Positions 19,769 to 39,968 of a stretch of 49,202 nucleotides of DNA are shown piece after piece; within the stretch, counting starts at the first letter, position 1, and every line of letters starts with the position of its first letter. Under the pieces are notes generated by a model. It was given only the letters and a program-made list of their open reading frames with translations. It searched no databases and had not been told where the DNA came from. The translations under genes were made by a program, and so were the position numbers. Source of the stretch: Marine Group I thaumarchaeote (lineage in GTDB: Archaea; Thermoproteota; Nitrososphaeria; Nitrososphaerales; Nitrosopumilaceae); assembly GCA_044358425.1 (NCBI GenBank), contig CP054849.1, positions 306,826 through 356,027 on the forward strand, given 5' to 3'.

Positions 19769-21043
19769 ATGGTAAAATCTGATCCATTTGCCAATGCAAC
19801 TAAGCAAGTGAATGATGCTTGTGACATACTTGGAATTAATGATAAGGGCATTCGTGAATATCTTGCAATGCCAAATAAAATGTTGAGAGTTAAAATTCCT
19901 GTAAAAATGGATAATGGAAAAATTAGAGTATTTACTGGTTTTAGAAGTCAACACAATAACGATAGAGGTCCATACAAAGGGGGCATTCGTTATTTCACCC
20001 CTGAAGGTGGTGTTGAGTATATGGAAAGAGAAGTTATGGCATTATCATCATGGATGACTTGGAAATGTGCAATTGTTGATGTTCCACTAGGTGGAGCAAA
20101 AGGTGCTGTTTACGTAAACCCAAAAACTGAAAAACTCAGTGATGGGGAAATGGAAAGATTGACTAGAGGTTTTGCTTACAAAATTGCAGAAATTATTGGA
20201 CCTGAGAAAGATATTCCTGCACCTGATGTTTATACTACTGGTAGAGAAATGACCCAAATTATGGATACGTTTAGTAAATTAAATGGAAACAAATACTCTC
20301 CAGGTGTAATTACTGGAAAACCAATTCCTATGGGTGGTTCTTTAGCAAGAAATGTTGCTACTGGATTGGGTACAGCATATACTGTTAGAGAAGCTGCAAA
20401 AACTTTGAAAATAAAATTAAAAGGTGCAAAAGTAATTTTACAAGGATTTGGAAATGCTTCTACTTTTGCTGGTGAATATTTAGAAAAAATGGGTGCAGTT
20501 GTAGTTGGAGTCAGTGATTCCAAAGGTTCAATTTTAATTCCTAAAGGTGCCAAAGTAAGTAAAATTTTAGAACACAAAGACAAAACTGGATCAGTTGTAG
20601 GATTTACTGGAAGTAAAAAAGTCTCAACTGAAGAATTGCTAACTGCAAAATGTGAAATTTTAATTCCTGGAGCCTTAGAAAATCAAATAACTGCAAAAAT
20701 TGCTGAAAAATTAAATTGTAAAATTATTGGTGAAGCTGCAAATGGGCCAACATTACCTGAAGCTGATCCTGTAATTGAAAAGAAAAAAATTCTTGTAGTT
20801 CCTGATATTTTAGCAAATTCTGGTGGTGTATGTATCTCCTATTTAGAATGGGTTCAAAACAATATGGGATACTATTGGAGTTTTGATGAAGTTGCATCAA
20901 AGATGGAAAAAAATATCACACAAGGATTCAAAGATGCATATGCATTATCCAAAAAACACAAAGTTGACATGCGAAAAGCTACCATGGTTTTAGCTGTTGA
21001 ACGTGTTCTAGAAGCATTTAATCATAAAGGCATTTGGCCATAG
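19769..21043 (+). CDS. gdhA: glutamate dehydrogenase
   Basis: GPYKGGIR, GGAKG, PAPDV, QGFGN, EAANGP. Confidence 0.95.
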   Translation: MVKSDPFANATKQVNDACDILGINDKGIREYLAMPNKMLRVKIPVKMDNGKIRVFTGFRSQHNNDRGPYKGGIRYFTPEGGVEYMEREVMALSSWMTWKCAIVDVPLGGAKGAVYVNPKTEKLSDGEMERLTRGFAYKIAEIIGPEKDIPAPDVYTTGREMTQIMDTFSKLNGNKYSPGVITGKPIPMGGSLARNVATGLGTAYTVREAAKTLKIKLKGAKVILQGFGNASTFAGEYLEKMGAVVVGVSDSKGSILIPKGAKVSKILEHKDKTGSVVGFTGSKKVSTEELLTAKCEILIPGALENQITAKIAEKLNCKIIGEAANGPTLPEADPVIEKKKILVVPDILANSGGVCISYLEWVQNNMGYYWSFDEVASKMEKNITQGFKDAYALSKKHKVDMRKATMVLAVERVLEAFNHKGIWP

Positions 21044-21066
21044 TTTGATTATTTTTAATTTCTATA

Positions 21067-21750
21067 ATGTCTGATGTTTTATTAGTACAAAATACTAGAA
21101 TTGAGGGCTCAGGACATTTAGGTCAATTATTGTCTGATGATGGATTTGATATTACATCAGTTCATGCAAAACATGAAAAAATACCTAAAAGACATTTTTC
21201 ATTTGCAGTAATCTTGGGAGCTCCAGAAAGTGCAAATGATGATTTACCATATTTAATTGAGGAACGAAAATTAATTAAAAATTATGTTGAAAATTCAATT
21301 CCTGTCTTGGGAATTTGTTTGGGTTCTCAATTAATTGCAAAAACTTTTGGATCTTCAGTATATAGGGGTCCGATTACTGAAATTGGATTTTATGATGATT
21401 TGACTATTACAAGTAATTCTAAATTATTTGATGGATTCAAAAATCCTTTTTCAGTATTTCATTGGCATGGGGATACTTTTGATTTGCCTTCAGGTGCTAC
21501 TAGATTAGCCTCATCTGAAAATTATCAAAATCAAGCATTTCAATACAAAAGTGCAATTGGTCTCCAATTTCATCTTGAAGTAAATGAACAAATGGTAAAT
21601 CTTTGGTTAGATAAAACCGAAGAAAAATTGCATAAAATCCCTCACATAGATCCACAACAAATTCGTTTAGATGTTGATCGAAATATTTCCACTGTTAAAT
21701 CTAACATGGGAACTTTTTACAAAAATTTTAAATCACAATTTTCGCTTTGA
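21067..21750 (+). CDS. class I glutamine amidotransferase-like protein
   Basis: GICLGSQL, WHGD, QFHLE catalytic triad. Confidence 0.9.
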   Translation: MSDVLLVQNTRIEGSGHLGQLLSDDGFDITSVHAKHEKIPKRHFSFAVILGAPESANDDLPYLIEERKLIKNYVENSIPVLGICLGSQLIAKTFGSSVYRGPITEIGFYDDLTITSNSKLFDGFKNPFSVFHWHGDTFDLPSGATRLASSENYQNQAFQYKSAIGLQFHLEVNEQMVNLWLDKTEEKLHKIPHIDPQQIRLDVDRNISTVKSNMGTFYKNFKSQFSL

Positions 21751-27787: not shown

Positions 27788-28825
27788 TTACATTTTAAAT
27801 TCAAGGCCTTTTGCTAATCTTAGTGCATCTACTAACCCATCAGCATACCCAATGCTTAAAATCGCATTCTCATCTCGACCTTCACCTAGAAATATCTCTG
27901 CATCCTTAATGTATCGTTCAGCATTATCCAAAATTACTTCAAACTCTTTTTGATTTTTATAAAGTGGTTCAATTTCTTCTAGTGCTTCTCTAACCATTGG
28001 AACATATTTTTTCATCATTTGATTTGAAATTTTTTCTGTTTTTTCAGAATTATCAAATGGTTCATCAATACATTTTCCAAATAATTTTAATGCATCTGAT
28101 TCTGTAAAATGTAGTCTGCCTGGAATGATGATTGTATGTGGTGGTTTTCCAAAATCTGTTTCTTTCAAATTAGATATTTTCCCACAAATAATTGCTTGAT
28201 CCTTAAAACCTATTCTTGATGCAATAATTGCATAATTTGATTCTGTAATTACATTTCTTGTTTGACCTTGTTCAGTTTCCAATAAACCTTTTAATGCATC
28301 TTTAGGATCCAAGAAAAATTTTTTGTCTTGATTATATTCTAACAAAAGCACTGTGTGATTACCTTCAATCAAATTTTTATAAATTACATAATATGGTGTT
28401 GTAAGTGATTTCATTTCACTCATTATTGTTGCAATTCTCCCAATTTTGTAAAAATGCAAGCCACATTCTCCAATCATAGATGTCAATGATGATGAAGCAT
28501 GGATAGAATGTGTTTTAATTTTATTTTCAATTGCTCTTGCTCTTAATTCGATATGTGTTGTTGCAATGTATGGATCCCCATATGCTAATAAAACTACATT
28601 TTTTTCTTTTGACATTTCTAAAATTTCATTTCCATCTTCCACTAACCATCTTTTAGCCAGCTTGAATTCACCTTTGATTGAATCTTGAATTTTTTTTAAA
28701 TCTGATTCACTAATGGGACTAGTAAATTGTTCTAAATACACAATGTCTGCAGTTGAAATTGTTTCTAATCCTTCAATGGGGATTGATTCAAAACCTGATA
28801 TTCCTAAACCTACAAACGATAACAT
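27788..28825 (-). CDS. dph5: diphthine synthase with C-terminal DUF357-like domain
   Basis: GDPYIATTH, GLHFYKIG, HTVLLL, FGKPPH; tail YIKDA..F...AILSIGYADG..DA. Confidence 0.93.
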   Translation of the reverse strand: MLSFVGLGISGFESIPIEGLETISTADIVYLEQFTSPISESDLKKIQDSIKGEFKLAKRWLVEDGNEILEMSKEKNVVLLAYGDPYIATTHIELRARAIENKIKTHSIHASSSLTSMIGECGLHFYKIGRIATIMSEMKSLTTPYYVIYKNLIEGNHTVLLLEYNQDKKFFLDPKDALKGLLETEQGQTRNVITESNYAIIASRIGFKDQAIICGKISNLKETDFGKPPHTIIIPGRLHFTESDALKLFGKCIDEPFDNSEKTEKISNQMMKKYVPMVREALEEIEPLYKNQKEFEVILDNAERYIKDAEIFLGEGRDENAILSIGYADGLVDALRLAKGLEFKM

Positions 28826-29952
28826 TATTGCAATTTTTTATCATGTAGCCTTTTTAAATGCTGTAGAGTAGCTTTGAAAATTTCTATTCCTTTAAGATAT
28901 TCCTCAATTGAAACTTTTTCATCAATTGTATGTGCTTCGTGAGGATCCCCTGGACCATATGTTACAACTGGAATTTCCCACTGATTCCCTAAAACATTCA
29001 TGTCTCCAGTACCTGTTTTTCGAATTAATGTTGGTCTTGATTTCTCCACTTGCATAATTCCTAAAGTAAATGCTCTTACTAATGATGAATTATGAGGTGC
29101 TTCAAATGGTTCAGTCTCATCTAAAATTGAATAAAATGCATCCACTTCTCTTTCTTGAGAGATTTCTTTAACTAGTGTTGCAATTTTTTGTTCAATACTT
29201 TTACAATTCATATCTACCGGAATTCTGATGTCAAAAAGAGTTTCACATTCTTTAGGGGTGATGTTGTGACTTGTTCCTCCTTTAATTTCTGTCATTGTCG
29301 CTGTTAACAACATTCCTTTTGTTTTGTCTTCTTGATTTGCTTCTAGTTTTTCTTTTAATTCTTTAACAAATATTATTGATTCTTCAATTGCATTTTTTGA
29401 AAGCCATGGAGCACTAGCATGAGAACTATCTGCAGCACTAATTTTTAGTTTGATTGCTAATCTTCCTTTGTAAGCAATTGTCACTTGTTTGATTCCACTT
29501 GGTTCTCCAAATACTGCATAATCTATATCCATTTTCTTTTTTACAATATTTTTAATTCCTACTGCATTTCCTTCTTCATCCACAGCTCCTACAAAAGTAA
29601 CAGTTCCTTGATTTTTTTCAATTGATGCAGCCGCAAAAAGCATTGCCATTAATGGTGCTTTGGCATCAGAAGCACCACGACCATAAAGTGAATCTCCTTC
29701 TTTTCTGACTTTGACTTTTCCTGGAACTACATCCATGTGTCCACATAACATGATTTTTGGTGAACCTGAACCTTTCTTTGCGATAATATTCCCAACTTCA
29801 TCAATTTGTATGTCTTCAAATCCTAAATCATCGCATTTATCAGCTAAAAATTCTGCCATTGGTCTTTCGCTAAGTGATGGTGTGTATAGTCGAAGTGCTT
29901 TTTCCAGCATTTTTGTTGCAAATTTTGGTGTTACAGTGAAATGGGTGTTCAA
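28825..29952 (-). CDS. lysK: [LysW]-lysine/ornithine hydrolase (M20)
   Basis: GHMDVV, GRGASDAK, DEEG, YGPG..AHT; context in lys operon. Confidence 0.9.
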   Translation of the reverse strand: MNTHFTVTPKFATKMLEKALRLYTPSLSERPMAEFLADKCDDLGFEDIQIDEVGNIIAKKGSGSPKIMLCGHMDVVPGKVKVRKEGDSLYGRGASDAKAPLMAMLFAAASIEKNQGTVTFVGAVDEEGNAVGIKNIVKKKMDIDYAVFGEPSGIKQVTIAYKGRLAIKLKISAADSSHASAPWLSKNAIEESIIFVKELKEKLEANQEDKTKGMLLTATMTEIKGGTSHNITPKECETLFDIRIPVDMNCKSIEQKIATLVKEISQEREVDAFYSILDETEPFEAPHNSSLVRAFTLGIMQVEKSRPTLIRKTGTGDMNVLGNQWEIPVVTYGPGDPHEAHTIDEKVSIEEYLKGIEIFKATLQHLKRLHDKKLQ

Positions 29953-29954
29953 CT

Positions 29955-30797
29955 TTATCGTTCTACTTTCATTGCGTAATCCAGCATTAGAGAAGGTATG
30001 TCTACATCACATACTCTTACAGTGTTTTTGTATTCTGTTGTATTGTTAACTTCATGAACCACTAACCCTTTTTCTTCACTTTCCATTAAATCTACACCTA
30101 CAATATCTCCTTGTACAGCTTGTTTTGCTTTGATACACATTTCTTCCATTTCTTGTGTAACTTTGCATGGTTCAGCAATTCCACCTAATGCCATGTTTGT
30201 TTTCCAATGTTCTGATTTTCTATATATTGCAGCAACTATTTTGTCTCCTACCATAATTGCTCTGATATCTCTTGGAGGTCTTTTTACAAATTCTTCTAAA
30301 TAATGAATTTGGTAAATTGGATACATAGTTTCTCTGCTTTCAATAATTCCTTCTGCTGAATCTTTGTCATTTAGTTTTGAAATTAACCTGCCCCAACTGC
30401 CAACTGTTGGTTTTATGACTTTTGGATATCCATCTGTTTCTAATGCTTGAATAGCTGCATCTTTTGAAAATGCTACTGTTGCATCTGGTGTTGGAACGCC
30501 TGATTTTTTTAGTAACATATGTGTGAATAATTTATTTCCTGCAAAAACTCCTGTGTTTAAACAATTGATTACTTTAACTCCCATTCCTTCAAGAGCTGCT
30601 GTTGAATGTAAATTTCTGTAGTAACTAACACATCGTTGAATAACTACTCCGTAATCTTCAGGTTTTTTTTCTAAATCTAAAGCAAGTTTTTTACAATCAA
30701 CCATCTGTATGTTGATGTCTTTTTTTTTACCTGCTTCTAGTAGAGCTTTTTCTTCCCAACGTATGGAATCGTAAAGAATTGTAACATCAGGATTCAC
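29955..30797 (-). CDS. lysX: alpha-aminoadipate--LysW ligase
   Basis: RimK-type ATP-grasp, KPTVGSWGR, WKTNMALG, EVNNTTEY; GTG overlaps lysW stop. Confidence 0.9.
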   Translation of the reverse strand: MNPDVTILYDSIRWEEKALLEAGKKKDINIQMVDCKKLALDLEKKPEDYGVVIQRCVSYYRNLHSTAALEGMGVKVINCLNTGVFAGNKLFTHMLLKKSGVPTPDATVAFSKDAAIQALETDGYPKVIKPTVGSWGRLISKLNDKDSAEGIIESRETMYPIYQIHYLEEFVKRPPRDIRAIMVGDKIVAAIYRKSEHWKTNMALGGIAEPCKVTQEMEEMCIKAKQAVQGDIVGVDLMESEEKGLVVHEVNNTTEYKNTVRVCDVDIPSLMLDYAMKVER

Positions 30798-30961
30798 TGG
30801 CCCCAATCCTCGCCAACTGTTTGAGCAGGCTTTAGATCAAAACCATCTGAACCTTTTGCTAATTCAAAACTTGCGCCACATTCGGGACATGTTACAATTT
30901 CTCCTTCAAGTGCATCACTTGGTATTGAGATATCTGCATCACATTCTTCGCATTTTGACAT
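30794..30961 (-). CDS. lysW: amino-group carrier protein LysW (C-terminus EDWGQ)
   Basis: Manual translation MSKCEECDADISIPSDALEGEIVTCPECGASFELAKGSDGFDLKPAQTVGEDWGQ*. Confidence 0.93.
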   Translation of the reverse strand: MSKCEECDADISIPSDALEGEIVTCPECGASFELAKGSDGFDLKPAQTVGEDWGQ

Positions 30962-30983: not shown

Positions 30984-32150
30984 TTATTTATCTTCAATAA
31001 TCTTTTTTTCGAGTCTATCTTCAAGTGGGATTTCTATTAGATCTCCCATTCTAAGATTTTTTAGCCCTGATGCAACTGCTTTTGCACCTACGTCGTCTTT
31101 TTCTAATCCTAATAATGACATCAAATAAGCTGCACCTGTTTTTCCTGCTAATTCTCCAAATACAATTCGTCTCCTATTTCCTACAGCTCTTGGTGGGATT
31201 GGCTCATATGCTGCTGGATTGCGTAGAATTGCTGCAAGGTGTGTGCCTGCTTTGTGTTTGTATGCAGCTGCACCGACAATTGGTTTTGAATCATACGGTT
31301 TGATTTCTGTATAATCTTCAATTAGTTTTGATAAATCCAATAGCATATCTAATCTAAAATCATTTGGTGATTTGTACAAGTAAGTCAATGCGACTGCTAC
31401 TTCTGCAAGTGGTGGAATTCCTGTTCTTTCACCAATTCCATCAATAGTTGTATGAATTTGATCAACTCCCGCATCACAAGCTGAAAATGCATTTGCAACA
31501 GCAAATCCTATATCATTATGTACATGTGCATCTAATGGTACATCTACTACTTCTCTAACTTTTTTTACAAAGTTAAACATTCCAACTGGACGTAAAATTC
31601 CCACTGTGTCTGGTAGACTGATTCTATCTACTCCTGCTTCTTCAATTGCTTTACAAACTTTAAGTAAAAATTCTGGTTCTGCTCTGCTACCATCTTCTAC
31701 TGTAAATCTAATTTTTAATCCATGTGATTTTGCATATTCTACAGTCTCTACAGCTCTTTCTAATGCTTCTTCTCTTGATATTCGAAGTTTATCTTTAAGA
31801 TGTATGTCTGAAATTCCTAAATATGCTGCACACCATTTTGCATCACAATCTAATGAAATATCGATATCTTGTTTAAGTGCACGACCATGTGAAACTATGT
31901 CTGCTGTTAATCCTTGTTTGATAATTGTTTTAGTTGCTTCTTGATGATCTTTAGAGACTACTGGAGAAATTTCAATTTGATCAACTCCAAAATAATCTAA
32001 CATCCATGCAATCTGAATTCTTTGTTTATTTGTAAATGAAACACCTGGATGTTGTTCACCTTCTCTTAAAGTACTATCTAATACTCTAATTTTTTTTGGA
32101 TTTTTTTCATATGCATTGTAGATATTTGCATAGTGATTCGGATCTTTCAT
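30984..32150 (-). CDS. homocitrate synthase (LeuA/HCS family)
   Basis: DSTLREGEQ, HVHND, GIGERTG, HKAGTH; no LeuA regulatory domain; heads lysW-lysX-lysK. Confidence 0.85.
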   Translation of the reverse strand: MKDPNHYANIYNAYEKNPKKIRVLDSTLREGEQHPGVSFTNKQRIQIAWMLDYFGVDQIEISPVVSKDHQEATKTIIKQGLTADIVSHGRALKQDIDISLDCDAKWCAAYLGISDIHLKDKLRISREEALERAVETVEYAKSHGLKIRFTVEDGSRAEPEFLLKVCKAIEEAGVDRISLPDTVGILRPVGMFNFVKKVREVVDVPLDAHVHNDIGFAVANAFSACDAGVDQIHTTIDGIGERTGIPPLAEVAVALTYLYKSPNDFRLDMLLDLSKLIEDYTEIKPYDSKPIVGAAAYKHKAGTHLAAILRNPAAYEPIPPRAVGNRRRIVFGELAGKTGAAYLMSLLGLEKDDVGAKAVASGLKNLRMGDLIEIPLEDRLEKKIIEDK

Positions 32151-32266: not shown

Positions 32267-32686
32267 TTACGCAACTTTTCTTAAAATTATTACAGTATTG
32301 GTATCTACTACTCCGGAAATTTTTCTTAAAGCATCAATACTGTTATTAATTTCTGCAATACTTGAACCACTCATTATTGTTGTAATATCGTATTGTCCTG
32401 TTATTTCATAAACTGTTTTTACTCCTTCTAGTTTAGCAAGTTTTGCTGAAACTTTTGATGTATCTGTAGCAGAATCAACTGATACTAAAACAATTGCACT
32501 TGTAACATTATCTTCTCCAATTTCAATTGTAAATTTACTAATTGTTTTACTGTCTACTAAATTTTTAACTCTTCGTCTAACTGCTGATTCTGAAAGTTTG
32601 AGTTTTTTTCCAATATCTACAAATGATTCTCTTGAATCTTCTTTAAGATACCCTATTATTTTTTCGTCTATTTTGTCCTTATACAT
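32267..32686 (-). CDS. lysM: Lrp/AsnC regulator LysM
   Basis: HTH LSESAVRRRV, YEITGQYD RAM domain; lys cluster context. Confidence 0.88.
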   Translation of the reverse strand: MYKDKIDEKIIGYLKEDSRESFVDIGKKLKLSESAVRRRVKNLVDSKTISKFTIEIGEDNVTSAIVLVSVDSATDTSKVSAKLAKLEGVKTVYEITGQYDITTIMSGSSIAEINNSIDALRKISGVVDTNTVIILRKVA

Positions 32687-33854
32687 TTCTCTTTTCTTCC
32701 TCTTTAGTTAATACAACATCTAAAGCATGTAAAACTTTTGTTACATCCTCTTCTTTAATTACTAAAGGTGGTAATATTCTGAGAATATTTCGTCCTGAAT
32801 ACAACATTAAAACACCTTCTTCAATTAATCCCATCAAAATATCTTTTACTTCGAATTTCATTTCAACTCCAATCATTAGTCCTTTTCCTCTTACTTCTCT
32901 AATCATTGTGTGTTTTTCTTTTAATTTTTCTAATCCTTCTCTAAAAATTTCTCCCATTTTTTTGGAATTCTCAATTAATCCATCTTCTGTTAATGATGTT
33001 AGTGCTGCAATTCCTGCTGCACAAGATATTGGATTACCTCCAAATGTTGATGAGTGTTCTCCTTTACTTATGGCAGCTAAAATGCCTGGTTTAACTAATG
33101 TGGCCCCCATTGGTACTCCTCCTGCAATTCCTTTTGCCAAACATAAGATATCTGGTACTGTATTCCAATGTTCACCTGCCCATAATCGTCCTGTTCTTCC
33201 TAATCCTGCTTGAATTTCGTCAAAAACTAATAAGATTCCTTTTTCATCACATAATTTTCTGACTTCTTGTAAAAATCCGTCTGGGGCAACTACAATACCA
33301 CTTTCACCTTGAATTGGTTCTAAAATAATTAAAGCTGTATCTTCATCAATTGCAGAACGTAGTGAATCCATATCTCCAAATGATGCAAAAGTAACTTTTT
33401 CAACTAATGGTGCAAATGCTTTTCTATATTTTGGATTAAATGTTAATGACAATGCTCCAAATGATTTTCCATGATATGATCCTTTCATAGCAACCATTCC
33501 TTTCTTTCCAGTAAACTTTCTTGCAAATTTCATTGCAGCTTCAACGGCTTCTGCACCACTGTTGTTTAGATGTACTTGTGTTAATCCTTCAGGAGCTATT
33601 TCGATAAGTTTTTTCAAAAATCCTTCCCGTGTTTTATTGTATAATGAACTATGTACTGTAATTATTTTATCAACTTGTTCTTTTATTGCCTTGTTAACTC
33701 TTTGATTTTGATGTCCAACTAGTGCAACACCATATCCTCCCATACAATCGATATACTCTTTTCCTTCTGTATCCCATACATGTGCATCCACACCTTTTTC
33801 AATTGTAACTGGAAACCTCTGATAGAGATTACCCATATGTTGATCTTCACTCAT
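32679..33854 (-). CDS. lysJ: [LysW]-aminoadipate semialdehyde/glutamate semialdehyde transaminase
   Basis: SGAEAVE, EPIQGESG, DEIQAG, LAKG. Confidence 0.9.
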   Translation of the reverse strand: MSEDQHMGNLYQRFPVTIEKGVDAHVWDTEGKEYIDCMGGYGVALVGHQNQRVNKAIKEQVDKIITVHSSLYNKTREGFLKKLIEIAPEGLTQVHLNNSGAEAVEAAMKFARKFTGKKGMVAMKGSYHGKSFGALSLTFNPKYRKAFAPLVEKVTFASFGDMDSLRSAIDEDTALIILEPIQGESGIVVAPDGFLQEVRKLCDEKGILLVFDEIQAGLGRTGRLWAGEHWNTVPDILCLAKGIAGGVPMGATLVKPGILAAISKGEHSSTFGGNPISCAAGIAALTSLTEDGLIENSKKMGEIFREGLEKLKEKHTMIREVRGKGLMIGVEMKFEVKDILMGLIEEGVLMLYSGRNILRILPPLVIKEEDVTKVLHALDVVLTKEEEKRNV

Positions 33855-34650
33855 GTTCAATCACCGTACAATTATCATGTGCAATAGCTGTAGAAATAGG
33901 ATTCTCTTTTTGACCATTTGCAATAAAAGCTTGTTTTACACCCATATCTAGTGCTTCAGTTGAAGCTAAAATCTTTTTTTCCATACCTGGACCTATTTTA
34001 GGTCTAATTTCTTTTGCTTCAGCTAATGTCAATTTTGGAACAACTTTATCTTCCATTAACAGTCCGTCTACGTTTGTTATGAATAATACTTTGTCACTTT
34101 TTACACTTCCAGCCACATATGCCGCAGCTCTGTCTCCATCTATGTTAAGAAATTCTGATTCCTCACTAATTGCAATTGGGGAGATAACGGGTGTTAATCC
34201 TTTTTCTAATAATGATTTAATAAATTCTGAATTTACATTCTTAATTTTTCCTGTATATCCTCCATCAATTGCTTGTTTTCTGCCTTTTTCGTTCATGATT
34301 AGGAGTTTCTTTTTCCTCTCGGCTTCAATGAGTCTTGCATCTACACCTGATAACCCGATGGCATTAATTCCATTTTTTTGAAGCATCTGGACAATTGTTT
34401 TATTAATTCTACCTGACATAACCATGGTAAAAATTTCTGCAGTTTCCTTGTCTGTATATCGACTTTTAATCCCACTCGGTGAAGTTACAAATTTTGGTTC
34501 TTTTCCCAATTGTTCACATACTTTTGTAACTTCTTTTCCTCCACCATGAACAATTATGATGCCTTCAGTTTCTGCAATTTTTTTAATGTCTGAAATTGTT
34601 GATTGATGTAAATCATCTACAACACTTCCACCAATTTTAATCGTAATCAT
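33847..34650 (-). CDS. lysZ: [LysW]-aminoadipate/glutamate kinase
   Basis: KIGGS, VHGGG, SRYTD, NIDGDRAA. Confidence 0.9.
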   Translation of the reverse strand: MITIKIGGSVVDDLHQSTISDIKKIAETEGIIIVHGGGKEVTKVCEQLGKEPKFVTSPSGIKSRYTDKETAEIFTMVMSGRINKTIVQMLQKNGINAIGLSGVDARLIEAERKKKLLIMNEKGRKQAIDGGYTGKIKNVNSEFIKSLLEKGLTPVISPIAISEESEFLNIDGDRAAAYVAGSVKSDKVLFITNVDGLLMEDKVVPKLTLAEAKEIRPKIGPGMEKKILASTEALDMGVKQAFIANGQKENPISTAIAHDNCTVIEHE

Positions 34651-34652
34651 TT

Positions 34653-35699
34653 CTAAACCGGAGTTAATGGAGTATATCTTAGTCCACTCATTTCATCAAA
34701 ACCACACATAACATTCATGTTTTGAATTGCAGAACCTGCTGCGCCTTTCATTAAATTATCTGATGCTGACAAAGCAATTAATCTATTATTATCTTCATCC
34801 AAATCAAATCCAATATCACAAAAGTTTGAACCTACTAAGAATTTTGGATCTGGGAATTTGTAAAGTCCTTTTTTATCTCTAATTAATCTGATAAATTTTT
34901 CATCACCATAAGCTTCACGATATATTTTCCATAATTCTTTTTGTTCCATATCTTTTTTCAAAAATGTATGATTTGTACATAAAATTCCTCTAACAACATC
35001 TACTGCATGTGGACTCATTGATACTTTGATTTTGCTTCCTGCAATTTCACTTAACTCTTGTTCAATTTCACCTGTGTGTCTGTGTTTTGCTGGTTTGTAT
35101 GGTCTGATTACTCCTGCACGCATTGCATGTGCTGTTCCTGAACCTGAACCTGCACCAGATGATCCAATTTTTGAATCTACAATTATGTGATTTGTATCAA
35201 TAAGGTCATTTTTAATTAATGGTGCAAGTGCTAGTGTTGATGTTACTGCCATACATCCTGGACAAGAAACAAGTTGTGCTTTTTTAATTTCTTCTCTATG
35301 TAATTCTGGAACGCCAAAAACTGACTTTTCTAAATAATCTGGATGTGGGTGTGTCCAACCATACCACTTATCATATGCTTCTTGATTATGTAATCTATAA
35401 TCTGCACTTAAGTCGATAATCTTGATTCCTCTATCGTATAATGCTTTTACAATTTCTGTTGCAGTTCCATGGGGTACTGCTGTGAATACTAAATCACAAT
35501 TATCAGTTAATTTATCGTAATCTAATTCTGAAAAGGTTAGATCTGTGAATCCTTTCAAACTAGGTTGAACTCTGTGTAGATATTCACCAACATGTTGTCT
35601 TGAAGTTACTGTAGTGATCTCAACCTCAGGGTGGTTGACAAGCAGACGAAGTGTTTCTCCTCCTACATATCCTGATGCGCCTACAACTCCTACTTTCAT
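34653..35699 (-). CDS. lysY: [LysW]-aminoadipyl/glutamyl-phosphate reductase
   Basis: GASGYVG, DLSADYR, PGC, DNLMKGAAG. Confidence 0.9.
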   Translation of the reverse strand: MKVGVVGASGYVGGETLRLLVNHPEVEITTVTSRQHVGEYLHRVQPSLKGFTDLTFSELDYDKLTDNCDLVFTAVPHGTATEIVKALYDRGIKIIDLSADYRLHNQEAYDKWYGWTHPHPDYLEKSVFGVPELHREEIKKAQLVSCPGCMAVTSTLALAPLIKNDLIDTNHIIVDSKIGSSGAGSGSGTAHAMRAGVIRPYKPAKHRHTGEIEQELSEIAGSKIKVSMSPHAVDVVRGILCTNHTFLKKDMEQKELWKIYREAYGDEKFIRLIRDKKGLYKFPDPKFLVGSNFCDIGFDLDEDNNRLIALSASDNLMKGAAGSAIQNMNVMCGFDEMSGLRYTPLTPV

Positions 35700-35862
35700 G
35701 ATAAATCTCATCAAAAGTAGTATAATTTATCTTGTTATATTGAACCTTGATTGTTGAATTTTTTTATTTAAACAGAGGCTATATCTGGAAAAAATTTAAT
35801 CTTATTTCACAAAATTTCTATTTTTAAAATAAATTTATAGGAAGTCTGACAAATATGCTCTT

Positions 35863-36807: not shown

Positions 36808-36903
36808 TGATTTTTTATATTTTTTATTTTTGAATTTTTTAAGATTAATGATATTTTTTAATGCAACTTTTTATTCTTACATTTGGAAATAATTGTGACT
36901 ATT

Positions 36904-37254
36904 ATGTTTCCTAAAACTATCTTAACTTCTATTTTTCTATTTGTAATTGCTGGATTGTTGGAAATTGGTGGTGGTTACCTTGTTTGGTTGTGGTTAAGAC
37001 ATGACTTTAGTTGGATGTTGGGTGCATTAGGTGGATTTGTCTTATTTCTTTACGGTGTAGTTCCGACATTTCAAAAAACTCATTTTCATAGGATCTATGC
37101 TGCATACGGTGGTGTGTTTATTGTAATGTCTGTTTTTTGGGGATGGTTAATTGATGGAATAATCCCTGACCAATATGAAATAATTGGAACAATAATTGCG
37201 GTAATTGGAATTTTAATAATTTTCTATATTCCTAGAAAAGGAGAAAAAATTTGA
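36904..37254 (+). CDS. YnfA (UPF0060) family small membrane protein
   Basis: EIGGGYLVWLW, RIYAAYGGVFI. Confidence 0.9.
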   Translation: MFPKTILTSIFLFVIAGLLEIGGGYLVWLWLRHDFSWMLGALGGFVLFLYGVVPTFQKTHFHRIYAAYGGVFIVMSVFWGWLIDGIIPDQYEIIGTIIAVIGILIIFYIPRKGEKI

Positions 37255-37580
37255 TTGACACAGTAAGTTCTTTGGGACTTTTCTTTTTTGCAGCTTTATT
37301 GGAAATAACTGGTGGATATTTGATTTGGAGATGGTTAAAAAATCATCAGGGAAAAATTCTTGGATTAGTTGGGGGATTAATTTTATTTTCATATGGTATA
37401 ATCATGACTTTTCAGCCTGAAAATTTTGGAAAAGTATATGCTGCATACGGTGGATTTTTTGTGATATCCTCTTTATTTTGGGGTTATTGGATAGATAAGA
37501 AAAAACCTGATAAATTTGAAATCATTGGTTCTATTGTAGTTTTGATTGGCATTGCAGTAATGTTTTATTTTCCTAGATGA
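37251..37580 (+). CDS. YnfA (UPF0060) family small membrane protein, second paralog
   Basis: EITGGYLIW, FGKVYAAYGG, PDKFE. Confidence 0.9.
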   Translation: MIDTVSSLGLFFFAALLEITGGYLIWRWLKNHQGKILGLVGGLILFSYGIIMTFQPENFGKVYAAYGGFFVISSLFWGYWIDKKKPDKFEIIGSIVVLIGIAVMFYFPR

Positions 37581-37614: not shown

Positions 37615-38472
37615 TTATTTTCTGGCATAATCTAAAGCAAATTCAATCATTTCTCTTGGTATATTTCTTTTAGCAACTTTTGCTAATCCTTTGAATTCTA
37701 CTGTATTGTTAACTTCGTGAACTACTATTCCTTTTTCTTCATCCTCCATCATATCTATTCCTAAAATTCCTCCTCCCATAGCTTTTGATGCTTTAATTGC
37801 CATCTCTTCCATTTCTTTTGTAATCTCACAAATTTCAGGGTCTGCACCTAAAGCAATATTTGTTTTAAATCCTCCTGATGATTTTCTATACATTCCTGCA
37901 ATTGGTTGATCACCTACTGTAATTATTCTGATATCTCTTGGAGGTCTTTTTACAACTTCTTGTAAATAATAAATTCTATCATGTGGACTATCAGTGATTT
38001 CTCTTACTTCTACAATTCCGTCCATTGTATCTTTATCTTTAATTGGCATTACCCCTCTTCCCCAACTACCAATTACTGGTTTGATAACTAATGGATATCC
38101 TACACTTTCTAAATTCTCAGATGCACTTTCACTTGAAAATGAAAAATATGTTTTAGGTGTTGGGATATTATTTTTTTTCAATAATAGTGTCATGAACATT
38201 TTGTTTCCACAAATACTTGCAACATCAAATTTGTTTAATACTGGAATGTCTAAAAATTCTAAAGCTGATGTAAAATGAAGACCTCGGAAATAACTAACAC
38301 ATCTCTCTAAAACTACGTCGCCTAAATCTAAATCCTCTTTTTTAGTATCTGTATTGATTTGTGTAATTTTGGCATCCAACATTTCTGTGGAATGTCCTAA
38401 TTCGGCGGCTTCCTTTTGGAGCATTTTTTCTTCCGTTCTTAAACGGTCAAAAACAATGCTGATTTTTGACAT
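37615..38472 (-). CDS. argX: glutamate--LysW ligase (ArgX-like LysX paralog)
   Basis: ATP-grasp, KPVIGSWGR, FKTNIALG, EVNNTVEF; in operon with argG. Confidence 0.8.
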   Translation of the reverse strand: MSKISIVFDRLRTEEKMLQKEAAELGHSTEMLDAKITQINTDTKKEDLDLGDVVLERCVSYFRGLHFTSALEFLDIPVLNKFDVASICGNKMFMTLLLKKNNIPTPKTYFSFSSESASENLESVGYPLVIKPVIGSWGRGVMPIKDKDTMDGIVEVREITDSPHDRIYYLQEVVKRPPRDIRIITVGDQPIAGMYRKSSGGFKTNIALGADPEICEITKEMEEMAIKASKAMGGGILGIDMMEDEEKGIVVHEVNNTVEFKGLAKVAKRNIPREMIEFALDYARK

Positions 38473-38639
38473 TACTCTCCCCAGTCTTCGCCTACGCTTT
38501 CTGCTTCTTTGAGCTCAATGTTTGATCCTTCTTTTTTAGAAATCTCATAATCAGCTCCACAATCAGCACAAGAGACTATTTCTCCTACTGCGGCATCTTC
38601 TGGGATATTGAGTTTTGCGTCACATTCTGGACAGTTCAT
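38472..38639 (-). CDS. lysW: amino-group carrier protein LysW/ArgW (C-terminus EDWGE)
   Basis: MNCPECDAKLNIPEDAAVGEIVSCADCGADYEISKKEGSNIELKEAESVGEDWGE*. Confidence 0.93.
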   Translation of the reverse strand: MNCPECDAKLNIPEDAAVGEIVSCADCGADYEISKKEGSNIELKEAESVGEDWGE

Positions 38640-39835
38640 GTTTTTGATTTCCTTTTCTTTTGTAATTTATTAGCTTCCGTTGATTGAATTCCCCATAATT
38701 CAACGAATCCTTTGGCTAATCTTTGGTCAAATGTGGATTCTACCCCGTAAGTAGCAATATCGTGACTGTACAATGAATTTTTTGATTTTCTTCCCACTAC
38801 TCTTAAACTTCCTTTATATAATTTCAATTTGACAGTACCTGAAACTGGTTTTTGTGATTTTTCAATAAAACCATCTAGATCTGTTTTAAGTGGATCTTGC
38901 CAAAGTCCTGAATACACTAAATGAGACCATTCATCGTCAATAATTGATTTAAATTTATTTTCATGTTTTGTATGTACCATTTTTTCTAAATCTGCGTGTG
39001 CTTCAATTAGACAAGTGGCTGCTGGTGTTTCATAGACTTCACGTGATTTAATTCCTACAACTCTATCTTCAATATGATCTATTATTCCAACACCTGCTGC
39101 ACCAGCTTTTTTGTTTATGTATTCAATTATTTTTTGAGAACCTTTTACTTTCCCATCAACTTCTATTGGTACTCCTTTATCGAATTTAATTTCTAAGTAA
39201 GTTGGTTTGTCTGGCAAGTCTTTTGTTTTAACCCAAATGAAAGCATCGTCTGGTGGTTCGTTATATGGATCTTCTAAAACTCCTCCTTCAATTGCACGTC
39301 CCCATAAATTCTGATCAATACTAAATTTTTTAGCAACTGAATCAATTTCAATTCCATGTTTATTTGCAAATTTTAATTCTGTATCTCTATCTAAATTTTT
39401 ATCACGAATTGGTGCAATAATTGGAAGATCCGAACCTGAACGTAATGTAATGTCAAAACGTACTTGATCATTTCCTTTACCTGAACAACCGTGTGCTAAT
39501 GAAGTAACTTTTTCTTTTTTTGCAATATCTAAAACTTTTTCTGCAATTAATGGTCTTGCAAGAGCTGTTGCTAAACAATATTTTTTTTGATAAAGTGCAT
39601 TTGCTTTAATTGCTGGGAATATGTAATCATCAACAAATTCTTTTCTTGCGTCAATATTGTAGTGTTTTTTAACTCCTAATTTTTTTGCTTTTGTTGCAAT
39701 TTTTTTTGCATCATCGCCTTGACCTACATCCACAGTAACTGTGATTACATCCATGTCGTGTTCTTCTTGCAAGTATTTCACAACAACTGATGTATCCAAT
39801 CCTCCTGAGAATGCTAAAATTCCTTTTTGAGTCAT
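38636..39835 (-). CDS. argG: argininosuccinate synthase
   Basis: AFSGGLDTS, GKGNDQVRF, GIKSREVYE. Confidence 0.97.
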   Translation of the reverse strand: MTQKGILAFSGGLDTSVVVKYLQEEHDMDVITVTVDVGQGDDAKKIATKAKKLGVKKHYNIDARKEFVDDYIFPAIKANALYQKKYCLATALARPLIAEKVLDIAKKEKVTSLAHGCSGKGNDQVRFDITLRSGSDLPIIAPIRDKNLDRDTELKFANKHGIEIDSVAKKFSIDQNLWGRAIEGGVLEDPYNEPPDDAFIWVKTKDLPDKPTYLEIKFDKGVPIEVDGKVKGSQKIIEYINKKAGAAGVGIIDHIEDRVVGIKSREVYETPAATCLIEAHADLEKMVHTKHENKFKSIIDDEWSHLVYSGLWQDPLKTDLDGFIEKSQKPVSGTVKLKLYKGSLRVVGRKSKNSLYSHDIATYGVESTFDQRLAKGFVELWGIQSTEANKLQKKRKSKT

Positions 39836-39968
39836 AAAACAATATTTCCGTAGCATTTTGGAATTTATCTTTTGTGTTGTGCTCATTTTTTTGTTTTTTT
39901 ACAAAAAATTACGACTAGCTTGAGCTAAAATTCGATGATTATTTAACCGCCGAATATAACGCTGTTTT

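What the first reader, a model, noticed from the sequence alone, without database searches (positions are those of the whole stretch)
30794..30961. LysW carrier ending in EDWGQ instead of the essential EDWGE
Seen: the lysW between homocitrate synthase and lysX ends GAG GAT TGG GGC CAG TGA (EDWGQ), while the paralog at 38472-38639 ends EDWGE. Known: LysX/ArgX phosphorylate the gamma-carboxyl of the C-terminal Glu to attach aminoadipate or glutamate, and Gln has no such carboxyl. Inference: this LysW is either made as a blocked pro-carrier needing deamidation, uses the alpha-carboxyl, or acts as a decoy/regulator. LysK, which cleaves gamma-glutamyl amides, and the orphan GATase at 21067 are candidate deamidases. 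Any of these would be a variant of the pathway I do not know to be characterised.
Basis: partly seen in the sequence, partly recalled or inferred. Interest (0 to 1): 0.75.

Follow-up and report, generated by a model that had tools for sequence, protein, structure and literature searches.

The report
Lysine carrier protein ending in glutamine
A small carrier protein of lysine synthesis is encoded with glutamine where its essential attachment residue, glutamate, should be; this holds across most ammonia-oxidising archaea and some other archaea, so an undescribed activation step probably exists.

Summary
lysW1 (30794-30961, minus strand) ends GAG GAT TGG GGC CAG TGA (EDWGQ). The paralogue at 38472-38639 ends EDWGE.

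It is not an error or a private mutation:
- All 30 nearest orthologous loci end in Q.
- The EDWGQ-stop pattern occurs in 305 of 401 genomes of the class, and the reversed-pattern control gave no hits.
- Contigs from RNA libraries carry an unchanged CAG.

It is not a decoy. In 99%-complete genomes both LysW copies end in Q. In three other families of the phylum the only LysW ends in Q and sits in a full lysYZWXJK cluster.

Q and E have swapped at least 7 times, in both paralogues. No LysX or LysK residue tracks the swap. The orphan GATase does not co-occur with Q.

Best reading: a pro-carrier whose terminal Gln is converted to the Glu-linked state by a core pathway enzyme, as Dop does for Pup. 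LysK is favoured. This is inferred, not shown. No paper in the searched library mentions the Gln-ending form. I rate it a new variant of a known kind.

The parts
30794..30961 (-). lysW1: 55-aa zinc-ribbon amino-group carrier protein ending EDWGQ
   Evidence: ORF and translation. NF041070 scores 89.2 bits against a cut-off of 75. The four Cys are in CEEC...CPEC.
30797..30799 (-). Terminal CAG (Gln) codon at the position of the essential C-terminal Glu
   Evidence: The codon is CAG in 43 of 44 family-f1 lysW1 loci and GAG in 1. It is unchanged in RNA-library and DNA contigs.
29955..30806 (-). lysX1: RimK-family ATP-grasp ligase. The ORF is listed from TTG 30806. The likelier start is GTG at 30799, which overlaps the lysW1 stop (CAGTGA).
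   Evidence: TIGR02144 LysX_arch scores 332.8 bits against 275.6. The GSWGR motif is present. It falls in the LysX-type clade of the tree.
28825..29952 (-). lysK: M20 [LysW]-lysine/ornithine hydrolase, the favoured candidate for removing the amide
   Evidence: TIGR01902 scores 280.9 bits against 163.1. NF003367 [LysW]-lysine hydrolase scores 280.7, below its cut-off of 363. It is the only LysK-like gene in the genome.
30984..32150 (-). Homocitrate/isopropylmalate-synthase-family gene upstream of lysW1
   Evidence: TIGR02146 scores 375 bits (cut-off 413.6) and NF002085 scores 418 (cut-off 517). It is a member of the family, but the substrate is not resolved.
32267..32686 (-). Lrp/AsnC-type regulator inside the cluster
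   Evidence: Pfam HTH_AsnC-type plus AsnC_trans_reg. An orthologue also sits in the f28 clusters.
32679..33860 (-). lysJ/argD aminotransferase
   Evidence: TIGR00707 scores 430 bits against 410.
33847..34650 (-). lysZ: [LysW]-aminoadipate/[LysW]-glutamate kinase
   Evidence: NF010662 scores 311.8 bits against 194.
34653..35714 (-). lysY/argC reductase
   Evidence: TIGR01850 scores 420.7 bits against 233.6.
38472..38639 (-). lysW2: the paralogous carrier, ending EDWGE
   Evidence: NF041070 scores 87.9 bits.
37615..38472 (-). ArgX-type ligase paired with lysW2
   Evidence: TIGR02144 scores 289.9 bits. It falls in the ArgX-type clade of the tree.
38636..39886 (-). argG, argininosuccinate synthase, upstream of lysW2
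   Evidence: NF001770 scores 520 bits against 334.
21067..21750 (+). Orphan class-I glutamine amidotransferase. Considered as the deamidase and not supported.
   Evidence: Pfam GATase scores 78 bits. Its distribution does not follow Q-type LysW.

Best explanation
lysW1 encodes a working amino-group carrier that is translated as an inactive precursor. Its last residue is Gln, so the gamma position is an amide that LysX cannot phosphorylate. Before or during its first use the amide is removed, giving the normal Glu gamma-carboxyl. From then on the protein cycles like any LysW: LysX loads it with aminoadipate, LysZ, LysY and LysJ modify the cargo, and LysK releases lysine and regenerates the Glu form. 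The enzyme that removes the amide belongs to the core pathway and is not a dedicated accessory. The most likely one is LysK, which already hydrolyses gamma-glutamyl amides on the same C-terminus; Gln is simply LysW-gamma-NH2. This mirrors Pup, which is encoded with either Gln or Glu at its C-terminus and is deamidated by Dop, the same enzyme that cleaves the Pup-lysine isopeptide. Shown here: the Q is real, conserved, expressed as CAG, and the only carrier type in several complete genomes. Inferred: that deamidation happens, and which enzyme does it.
For: 1. The Q is real and conserved. All 30 nearest orthologues end in Q. 114 of the best 120 homologues end in Q. 305 of 401 class genomes carry EDWGQ plus a stop, with no reversed-pattern control hits.
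2. The Q form must function as a carrier. G269, G310 and G319 (99% complete) each have exactly two LysW genes over the cut-off, and both end in Q; G083 is the same. In G454, G468, G461, G475 and G595 (98-99% complete, three other families) the only LysW gene ends in Q. Where I fetched the surroundings it sits in lysY-lysZ-lysW-lysX-lysJ...lysK...argG clusters.
3. Q and E are interchangeable over evolutionary time, as in Pup. The label needs at least 7 changes on the LysX/ArgX tree. The swaps affect both paralogues: G397 and G278 have Q on the Arg-type copy and E on the Lys-type copy, G241 and G261 the reverse, and G238 in the window's own genus has E on both.
4. The ligase and the hydrolase show no adaptation. 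No LysX column out of 308 tracks the partner's Q or E, and GSWGR is kept in 84 of 85 sequences. No LysK column changes in the same direction across 5 contrasts between Q and E lineages. This fits enzymes that meet the same Glu-ended substrate, or that handle the amide natively.
5. No accessory gene was found. No amidase lies in the clusters I fetched in four lineages. The window's genome has only two LysX-family genes and one LysK.
6. Precedent from papers. Passages of PMC8599861 say that Pup is encoded with Gln in some species and that Dop is both deamidase and depupylase. Passages of PMC12998189 say that LysK is promiscuous. Passages of PMC10433800 say that the terminal Glu of the EDWGE motif is the attachment site.
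Against: No data here show that the protein is deamidated; there is no mass spectrometry and no assay. LysK's known promiscuity, as described in the passages I read, concerns the acyl side (acetyl versus LysW), not ammonia as the leaving group. M20 enzymes of this type normally grip the alpha-carboxylate of the leaving amino acid, which ammonia lacks (recalled, not checked here). The lack of any LysK signature is equally what one expects if LysK is not involved. Within the window's family each paralogue holds its state tightly: Q in 219 of 223 genomes and E in 217 of 223. That suggests Q and E are not equivalent there, and a simple 'harmless precursor' model does not explain it.
Confidence: 0.5

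Rival explanations
1. LysX loads the Gln form directly, without prior hydrolysis. With ADP and phosphate bound, phosphate attacks the amide to give the same gamma-glutamyl phosphate intermediate, and aminoadipate then displaces it. This is the equivalent of the gamma-glutamyl transferase reaction of glutamine synthetase, and of the phosphate-dependent chemistry of Dop.
For: No accessory gene is found near Q-type lysW in four lineages. No third LysX paralogue exists in the window's genome. lysX is always adjacent and is translationally coupled to lysW1 (CAGTGA overlap in 43 of 44 family loci). Dop, a homologue of the Pup ligase, uses a catalytic phosphate in its active site (passages of PMC8599861). 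The glutamine synthetase transferase reaction is textbook knowledge that I recalled and did not check here.
Against: LysX is an ATP-grasp enzyme, not of the glutamine-synthetase fold, and I know of no report of such a reaction for LysX. If LysX had to bind an amide, some co-variation with Q or E would be expected, and none was seen.
Confidence: 0.15
2. A separate amidase or glutaminase encoded elsewhere in the genome matures LysW-Q. Candidates include the orphan GATase at 21067, the second M20 peptidase, or an unrecognised enzyme.
For: Dedicated deamidases for protein glutamine exist in other systems. The GATase orthologue is present in all 5 Q-bearing genomes of the order that I tried. Every Q-only genome tried has at least one M20 besides LysK.
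Against: The GATase orthologue is also present in E-only genomes G238, G402, G253, G274, G293, G330 and G318. It is absent from the Q-only genomes G454, G475, G595, G586 and G612, where the best hits (E 1e-7 to 1e-10) are paralogues of about 515 aa. Independent origins of Q in at least five lineages would each need such an enzyme to be in place already.
Confidence: 0.15
3. In these organisms the cargo is attached to the alpha-carboxyl of the last residue, as RimK does on ribosomal protein S6. The side chain (Gln or Glu) would then be irrelevant.
For: LysX belongs to the RimK alpha-L-glutamate ligase family (TIGR00768, 286 bits). This would explain why Q and E can swap without any change in LysX.
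Against: Papers describe attachment to the C-terminal Glu of LysW in Thermus, Sulfolobus, Thermococcus and Natrinema (passages of PMC10433800); that the linkage is through the gamma-carboxyl is my recollection. An alpha link would shorten the tether by two carbons for all five enzymes. Yet LysX, its GSWGR motif and LysK show no lineage-specific change. The basal relatives all have E.
Confidence: 0.08
4. LysW1-Q is never loaded and acts as a decoy or regulator. For example, it might bind pathway enzymes and hold them inactive.
For: In the window's family each genome usually has one Q copy and one E copy, so the E copy could in principle carry both pathways, as the single LysW of Sulfolobus does.
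Against: Genomes with only Q-type LysW exist in the same order and in three other families, with full pathway clusters. lysW1 has its own LysX-type ligase and sits between the synthase gene and lysX-lysK.
Confidence: 0.04
5. The Glu form arises during translation. Archaea make Gln-tRNA(Gln) from Glu-tRNA(Gln), so a fraction of chains could receive Glu at the final CAG.
For: The indirect tRNA pathway is general archaeal biology, recalled and not tested here. A carrier is recycled, so only a small active fraction might be enough.
Against: Misincorporation rates are normally far too low to supply a stoichiometric carrier. Nothing in the sequence marks this CAG as special. No call bears on this.
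Confidence: 0.03

Closest known systems
LysW / amino-group carrier protein (AmCP) of Thermus thermophilus, Sulfolobus, Thermococcus and Natrinema
   Same: It shares the 55-aa zinc-ribbon fold family (NF041070 over cut-off), the acidic EDWG tail, and an adjacent LysX with the GSWGR motif. The full LysZ/Y/J/K set is nearby.
   Different: The last residue, which is the covalent attachment site, is encoded as Gln instead of the Glu described as crucial (passages of PMC10433800). Two carriers, each with its own ligase, are present, rather than one shared carrier.
Pup (prokaryotic ubiquitin-like protein) with Dop and PafA
   Same: Both are small proteins whose C-terminal Glu gamma-carboxyl is phosphorylated by a ligase and joined to an amine. 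Both are encoded with Gln in some species and Glu in others. In Pup, the enzyme that cleaves the isopeptide also deamidates the Gln form (passages of PMC8599861). The Q/E mosaic is seen here too.
   Different: There is no homology. The Pup ligase and deamidase have a glutamine-synthetase-like fold and are paralogues of each other. Here the ligase is an ATP-grasp enzyme, the hydrolase is an M20 metallopeptidase, and there is no third ligase-like paralogue. Deamidation of LysW has not been shown.
RimK and ribosomal protein S6
   Same: LysX is a RimK-family ligase acting on a protein C-terminus (TIGR00768).
   Different: RimK extends the alpha-carboxyl with glutamates, whereas LysX makes a single link to the terminal Glu of LysW. 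The RimK system is relevant only to the alpha-carboxyl rival.

Membership tests
LysW/ArgW amino-group carrier protein (NCBIfam NF041070, Pfam PF21344) | Profile score above the curated cut-off | tested here: met
   89.2 bits against a cut-off of 75, aligned to model positions 3-57 of 57. Homologues carry PF21344.
LysW/ArgW amino-group carrier protein (NCBIfam NF041070, Pfam PF21344) | Zinc ribbon with two CxxC pairs | tested here: met
   CEEC at residues 4-7 and CPEC at residues 25-28 in the translation.
LysW/ArgW amino-group carrier protein (NCBIfam NF041070, Pfam PF21344) | C-terminal EDWGE motif whose last Glu is the attachment site | tested here: not met
   The gene encodes EDWGQ. EDWG is kept and only the last residue differs. 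Whether the mature protein ends in Glu cannot be told from sequence.
LysW/ArgW amino-group carrier protein (NCBIfam NF041070, Pfam PF21344) | Adjacent LysX/ArgX ligase with the GSWGR motif that recognises the tail | tested here: met
   LysX_arch scores 332.8 bits. GSWGR is present in 84 of 85 LysX/ArgX sequences next to LysW genes, including this one.
LysW/ArgW amino-group carrier protein (NCBIfam NF041070, Pfam PF21344) | Covalent loading with aminoadipate or glutamate | not testable with these tools
   This needs mass spectrometry or an enzyme assay.
Pup-type Gln/Glu pro-form system (a works-like comparison, not homology) | C-terminal Gln in some lineages and Glu in close relatives | tested here: met
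   at least 7 changes on the tree, and E in the orthologue of G238, which is in the same genus.
Pup-type Gln/Glu pro-form system (a works-like comparison, not homology) | A deamidase that is a paralogue of the ligase (Dop next to PafA) | tested here: not met
   tblastn of LysX1 and ArgX against the whole genome finds only these two genes, plus one weak unrelated ATP-grasp hit.
Pup-type Gln/Glu pro-form system (a works-like comparison, not homology) | The enzyme that cleaves the isopeptide also removes the amide | not testable with these tools
   LysK is present, but its activity on LysW-Gln is unknown.

The most novel reading that the evidence does not exclude
Amino-group carrier proteins have a hidden maturation step. 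A large share of LysW genes are encoded as Gln-ended pro-carriers: 19 of 109 representative clusters, most ammonia-oxidising archaea, and several other archaeal lineages. These must be switched on by removal of the amide. Selection holds the Q state because the step works as a checkpoint, for example by tying the supply of active carrier to the presence or product state of LysK. That would make it a second, independent invention of the Pup/Dop logic, this time in primary metabolism.
Probability: 0.3. Interest if true: 0.85.

Novelty: new variant of a known kind. Interest (0 to 1): 0.72.

Why it matters
LysW chemistry is described as depending on the terminal Glu. Here, the main lysine carrier of the ocean's and soil's dominant ammonia oxidisers is encoded without it, and in some archaea so is the only carrier.

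If the Gln has to be removed, three things follow:
- There is an undescribed post-translational step in lysine and arginine synthesis.
- Recombinant Q-form LysW would be inert in reconstitution experiments unless it is matured first.
- Metabolic models of these organisms lack a reaction.

It would also be a second natural case of the Gln/Glu pro-form switch known from Pup. It is directly testable with one peptide mass measurement.

Tried and rejected
**Sequencing error, private mutation or RNA editing.** Rejected. Caveat: rests on contigs, RNA libraries can hold DNA, and the DNA run may be the source of the window.

**Orphan GATase at 21067 as deamidase.** Its distribution does not follow Q.

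**A second LysK or a third LysX paralogue.** None in the window's genome. The other M20 is a 455-aa dipeptidase-like protein. M20 counts in Q-only genomes do not discriminate.

**An amidase inside Q-type clusters of other lineages.** None found. The neighbours were a CobW/HypB/UreG-like GTPase, a thiolase, an HpcH aldolase, an FAA hydrolase and argH.

**Co-variation of LysX with the partner's Q or E.** None.

**Convergent change in LysK.** None. The contrasts are few and related genomes are not independent.

**Taxonomy and context of about 14 divergent metagenomic Q-type clusters.** These are at most 59% identical to any LysW I held.
- The listing of cluster members gave no organism.
- The two atlas calls gave no taxa for the nearest clusters.
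- The first related-loci run failed because the alignment had no conserved stretch.
- The single genome contigs and metagenome-contig scans, run with a smaller alignment, returned only Nitrososphaeria-like lysW2 genes.
- Where these clusters come from stays open.

**Other items.**
- An apparent LysX-LysK fusion in G252 is an out-of-frame GC-rich run.
- The Q-pattern hit in G481 is a chance match outside any LysW.
- No structure or complex prediction was run. LysW with LysX or LysK are textbook pairs, and a pass would not tell the rivals apart.
- Supplementary files of papers were closed, so any proteomic tables listing LysW peptides could not be seen.
Full report
**1. The observation**

The reverse complement of window 30794-30811 reads GAG GAT TGG GGC CAG TGA. 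The ORF 30794..30961 on the minus strand gives a 55-aa protein ending TVGEDWGQ. The second copy, at 38472..38639, ends GAA GAC TGG GGA GAG TAA, that is VGEDWGE. Both pass the curated cut-off of NCBIfam NF041070, the archaeal LysW/ArgW carrier (89.2 and 87.9 bits against 75), and the final Q aligns with the last model position.

The surrounding genes, all on the minus strand:
- 30984-32150: a homocitrate/isopropylmalate-synthase-family gene
- 30794-30961: lysW1
- 29955-30806: lysX1
- 28825-29952: lysK
- 32267-32686: an Lrp-type regulator
- 32679-33860: lysJ
- 33847-34650: lysZ
- 34653-35714: lysY
- 38636-39886: argG
- 38472-38639: lysW2
- 37615-38472: an ArgX-type ligase

The window is part of a single 1.36-Mb contig that holds exactly these two LysW genes.

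**2. The Q is not an error or a private mutation**

- A protein search of 151 genomes of the window's family found LysW in 149. All 30 loci returned for the nearest orthologues, each from a different species-level genome, end EDWGQ.
- In the 5.8-billion-protein collection, 306 proteins matched at E up to 0.001. Of the best 120, 112 end EDWGQ and one each ends VDWGQ and DDWGQ. Three more read EDWGQ followed by a read-through of the TGA stop. One, P0018, ends EDWGE (91% identical, 20 member sequences). One is the same E form with read-through, and one breaks off inside the motif into unrelated sequence.
- The DNA pattern for EDWGQ plus a stop is in 305 of 401 genomes of the class. The same pattern read backwards hit nothing.
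- Contigs from three RNA-library runs (two studies) and one DNA run cover the codon with no differences. This argues against RNA editing. The caveats are that these are contigs, that RNA libraries can contain DNA, and that the DNA run may be the source of the window.
- Five genomes and four are flagged as unpublished (G306, G077, G382, G345, G413). They enter only these tallies. Without the five flagged, that count is 300 of 396. Without the four flagged, that count is 317 of 397. The tally likewise includes unpublished G077, G092 and G093, all with matches; without them it is 146 of 148.

**3. Distribution of Q and E**

| Group | EDWGQ pattern | EDWGE pattern |
|---|---|---|
| f1 (the window's family) | 219 of 223 | 217 of 223 |
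| f3 | 78 of 78 | 25 of 78 |
| f2 | 6 of 10 | 10 of 10 |
| f5 | 1 of 4 | 4 of 4 |
| f4 | 0 of 11 | 10 of 11 |
| f6 to f11 (10 genomes) | 0 of 10 | 9 of 10 |
| f12 to f20 (65 genomes, other orders of the class) | 0 of 65 | 45 of 65 |

- In f1 the usual state is one Q copy and one E copy per genome.
- Many f3 genomes have two Q hits.
- f13 has neither pattern (0 of 14 for both).
- The E pattern overall is in 321 of 401 genomes, with two stray reversed-pattern control hits.
- Record titles returned by the genome-contig scan show that relatives in this class include Nitrososphaera, Cenarchaeum, Nitrosopelagicus and Nitrosopumilaceae.

The patterns require exactly E-D-W-G-Q/E followed by T-R-R, so variants are missed and TGG is admitted as a 'stop'. 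One Q hit that I inspected, in G481, is a chance match outside any LysW gene.

**4. The Q form has to be a working carrier**

- A family search of five genomes showed that G269, G310 and G319 (all 99% complete) each have exactly two LysW genes over the cut-off. Translation shows all six end EDWGQ, one of the Lys type and one of the Arg type per genome. G083, in the window's family, is the same. G238, in the window's own genus, has E on both.
- In a sample of 401 genomes of the phylum (at least 80% complete), the Q pattern also appears outside the class: f28 in 13 of 16, f34 in 9 of 27, and single genomes of f49 and f55.
- In G454 and G468 (f28), G461 and G475 (f34) and G595 (f49), all 98-99% complete, the only LysW-family gene is the Q-ended one.
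- In f28, f34 and f55 that gene sits inside canonical clusters such as lysY-lysZ-lysW-lysX-lysJ...lysK...argH-argG. In G595 (f49) only lysX lies beside it in the stretch I fetched.
- Among the best 150 of 281 matches in the library of 50%-identity representatives, 109 have an intact W-G-x end. Of these, 90 end in E and 19 end in Q. About 14 of the Q clusters are at most 59% identical to any LysW I held, and I could not place them taxonomically.

**5. Q and E have swapped repeatedly**

I extracted LysW and the ligase gene downstream of it from 95 gene pairs across the loci and kept 85 ligase sequences. Ten were left out: six lacked a downstream frame of 200 aa or more, one frame was over 330 aa, and three lacked the N-terminal motif used for trimming.

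The quick maximum-likelihood tree was used because the careful search did not finish. It splits into two clades:
- an ArgX-type clade of 26 sequences, 21 with an E partner and 5 with a Q partner;
- a LysX-type clade of 59 sequences, 43 with a Q partner and 16 with an E partner.

The Q/E label needs at least 7 changes on this tree, and at least 4 are forced by well-supported branches. The early-branching families f4, f6 and f8 to f11 are all E.

The mosaic runs in both directions:
- G397 and G278: Q on the Arg-type copy and E on the Lys-type copy.
- G241 and G261: the reverse.
- G274: E on both.

Within the window's family, however, each copy keeps its state in about 97-98% of genomes, while the neighbouring Gly codon varies freely (GGA 22, GGG 20, GGC 2 of 44). 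I take this as a sign of purifying selection on the residue. No formal test was made.

**6. Which enzyme handles the amide?**

- *LysX.* No LysX column out of 308 has a residue shared by at least 90% of Q-partnered sequences and at most 10% of E-partnered ones. Five sister contrasts give no consistent substitution. The GSWGR motif is kept in 84 of 85. The LysX1 of G238, whose partner ends in E, is 88.7% identical to the window's LysX1.
- *LysK.* I aligned 36 LysK sequences and made five contrasts between Q and E lineages, including one within a single genus of f34 (2 Q against 4 E). No column changes in the same direction across contrasts. Two positions are fixed differently in the Q-bearing families of the order (Thr232 and Glu222 in window numbering, 9 of 9) than in five early-branching E-only genomes. 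The other lineages do not share this, so it may simply reflect ancestry.
- *The orphan class-I GATase at 21067-21750*. A full-length orthologue is present in all five Q-bearing genomes of the order that I tried. It is also present in seven E-only genomes (G238, G402, G253, G274, G293, G330, G318). It is missing from E-only G252 and G347, and from five Q-only genomes outside the order.
- *Other candidates.* No amidase lies in the clusters I fetched. The window's genome has one LysK, one unrelated M20 peptidase and only two LysX-family genes.

**7. Interpretation**

According to the passages I read, the terminal Glu of the EDWGE motif is the residue that links aminoadipate or glutamate, and GSWGR in LysX/ArgX recognises the motif (PMC10433800). 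That the link is through the gamma-carboxyl is my recollection of the primary papers, which the library does not hold.

A Gln has no carboxyl there. Yet Q-only genomes keep the whole pathway, and Q and E swap without any visible change in the enzymes. The simplest account is that the amide is removed by an enzyme that is always present.

LysK already hydrolyses gamma-glutamyl amides on this same tail, and it is described as promiscuous (passages of PMC12998189). The parallel with Pup is close. Pup is encoded with a terminal Gln in some actinobacteria and Glu in others, and Dop both deamidates the Gln form and cleaves the Pup-lysine isopeptide (passages of PMC8599861).

I put about 0.5 on 'a pro-carrier deamidated by a core pathway enzyme, LysK favoured'. 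The rivals:
- direct phosphate-dependent transfer by LysX: 0.15
- an unlinked dedicated amidase: 0.15
- use of the alpha-carboxyl: 0.08
- a decoy: 0.04
- Glu arising by mistranslation: 0.03

None of the chemistry is shown here.

**8. What the model does not explain**

If Q were a harmless precursor, the two copies in the window's family should drift between states. They do not. Some advantage of having a Gln-ended Lys-type carrier there is implied. A checkpoint on carrier activation is one idea, and nothing tests it here.

**9. Literature**

All searches were of the held library only.
- 'EDWGQ' matched no paper, while 'EDWGE' matched 12.
- 'LysW' with 'deamidation' matched one unrelated review.
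- 'LysW' with 'C-terminal glutamine' matched none.
- 'LysW' with 'Thaumarchaeota' matched three papers. The one I opened (PMC6038301, passages only) merely infers a LysW pathway in Nitrosopumilus maritimus from gene presence.
- A further search combining LysW with names of ammonia oxidisers listed nothing on the point among the 20 papers shown.
- A 2025 paper on the Thermus LysW pathway (PMC12998189) does not contain the word 'glutamine' in its main text.

Most primary LysW papers are in subscription journals that the library does not hold, and supplements were closed. 'Not in print' therefore holds only for these searches.

**10. Verdict**

The protein is a LysW by homology and context, but it fails the one feature that defines how LysW works. 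It is best filed as a new variant of a known kind, with a mechanism that is inferred and that one mass measurement could test.

Noticed in passing
L150:10179-11387 (-), L152:4896-6107 (+), L155:10507-11736 (-): In the f28 clusters, a conserved ORF of 403-410 aa with a weak CobW/HypB/UreG GTPase domain lies between lysJ and lysK. It could be a metal chaperone for the zinc-ribbon carrier or the di-metal hydrolase.
   Followed up: no
window 30794-30811: lysX1 most likely starts at the GTG that overlaps the lysW1 stop (CAGTGA). In 44 of 44 loci of the window's family the stop is TGA and the Glu codon of EDWG is GAG, so GAGGAY may double as a ribosome-binding site.
   Followed up: partly
window 19769-21750: The orphan class-I GATase directly follows a 424-aa ORF that looks like glutamate dehydrogenase. 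That label comes from reading the translation; the ORF was not scanned. In the genomes I tried, the GATase orthologue was found only in families f1, f2, f3 and f5.
   Followed up: partly
window 27788-28825 (-): A tetrapyrrole-methylase-fold protein is fused to DUF357. The resemblance to diphthine synthase is my recollection.
   Followed up: no
window LysK residues 222 and 232 (within 28825-29952): All 9 LysK sequences from Q-bearing families of the order have Glu222 and Thr232. The 5 early-branching E-only genomes have K/L and I/L/M/V at these positions. This is clade-specific and is not repeated in f28 or f34.
   Followed up: partly
window 36883-37580 (+): Two adjacent, overlapping ORFs of 123 and 109 aa encode similar small hydrophobic proteins between the deoxyhypusine synthase gene and the ArgX-type gene.
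   Followed up: no
G347:C4:26359-27435: The LysK match in this 99%-complete E-only genome contains one in-frame TAA.
   Followed up: no
P0197, P0152, P0224, P0242: Some LysW-like representatives end EDFGQ, EDFGE or VDYGE, so the Trp of the tail motif is not universal.
   Followed up: no
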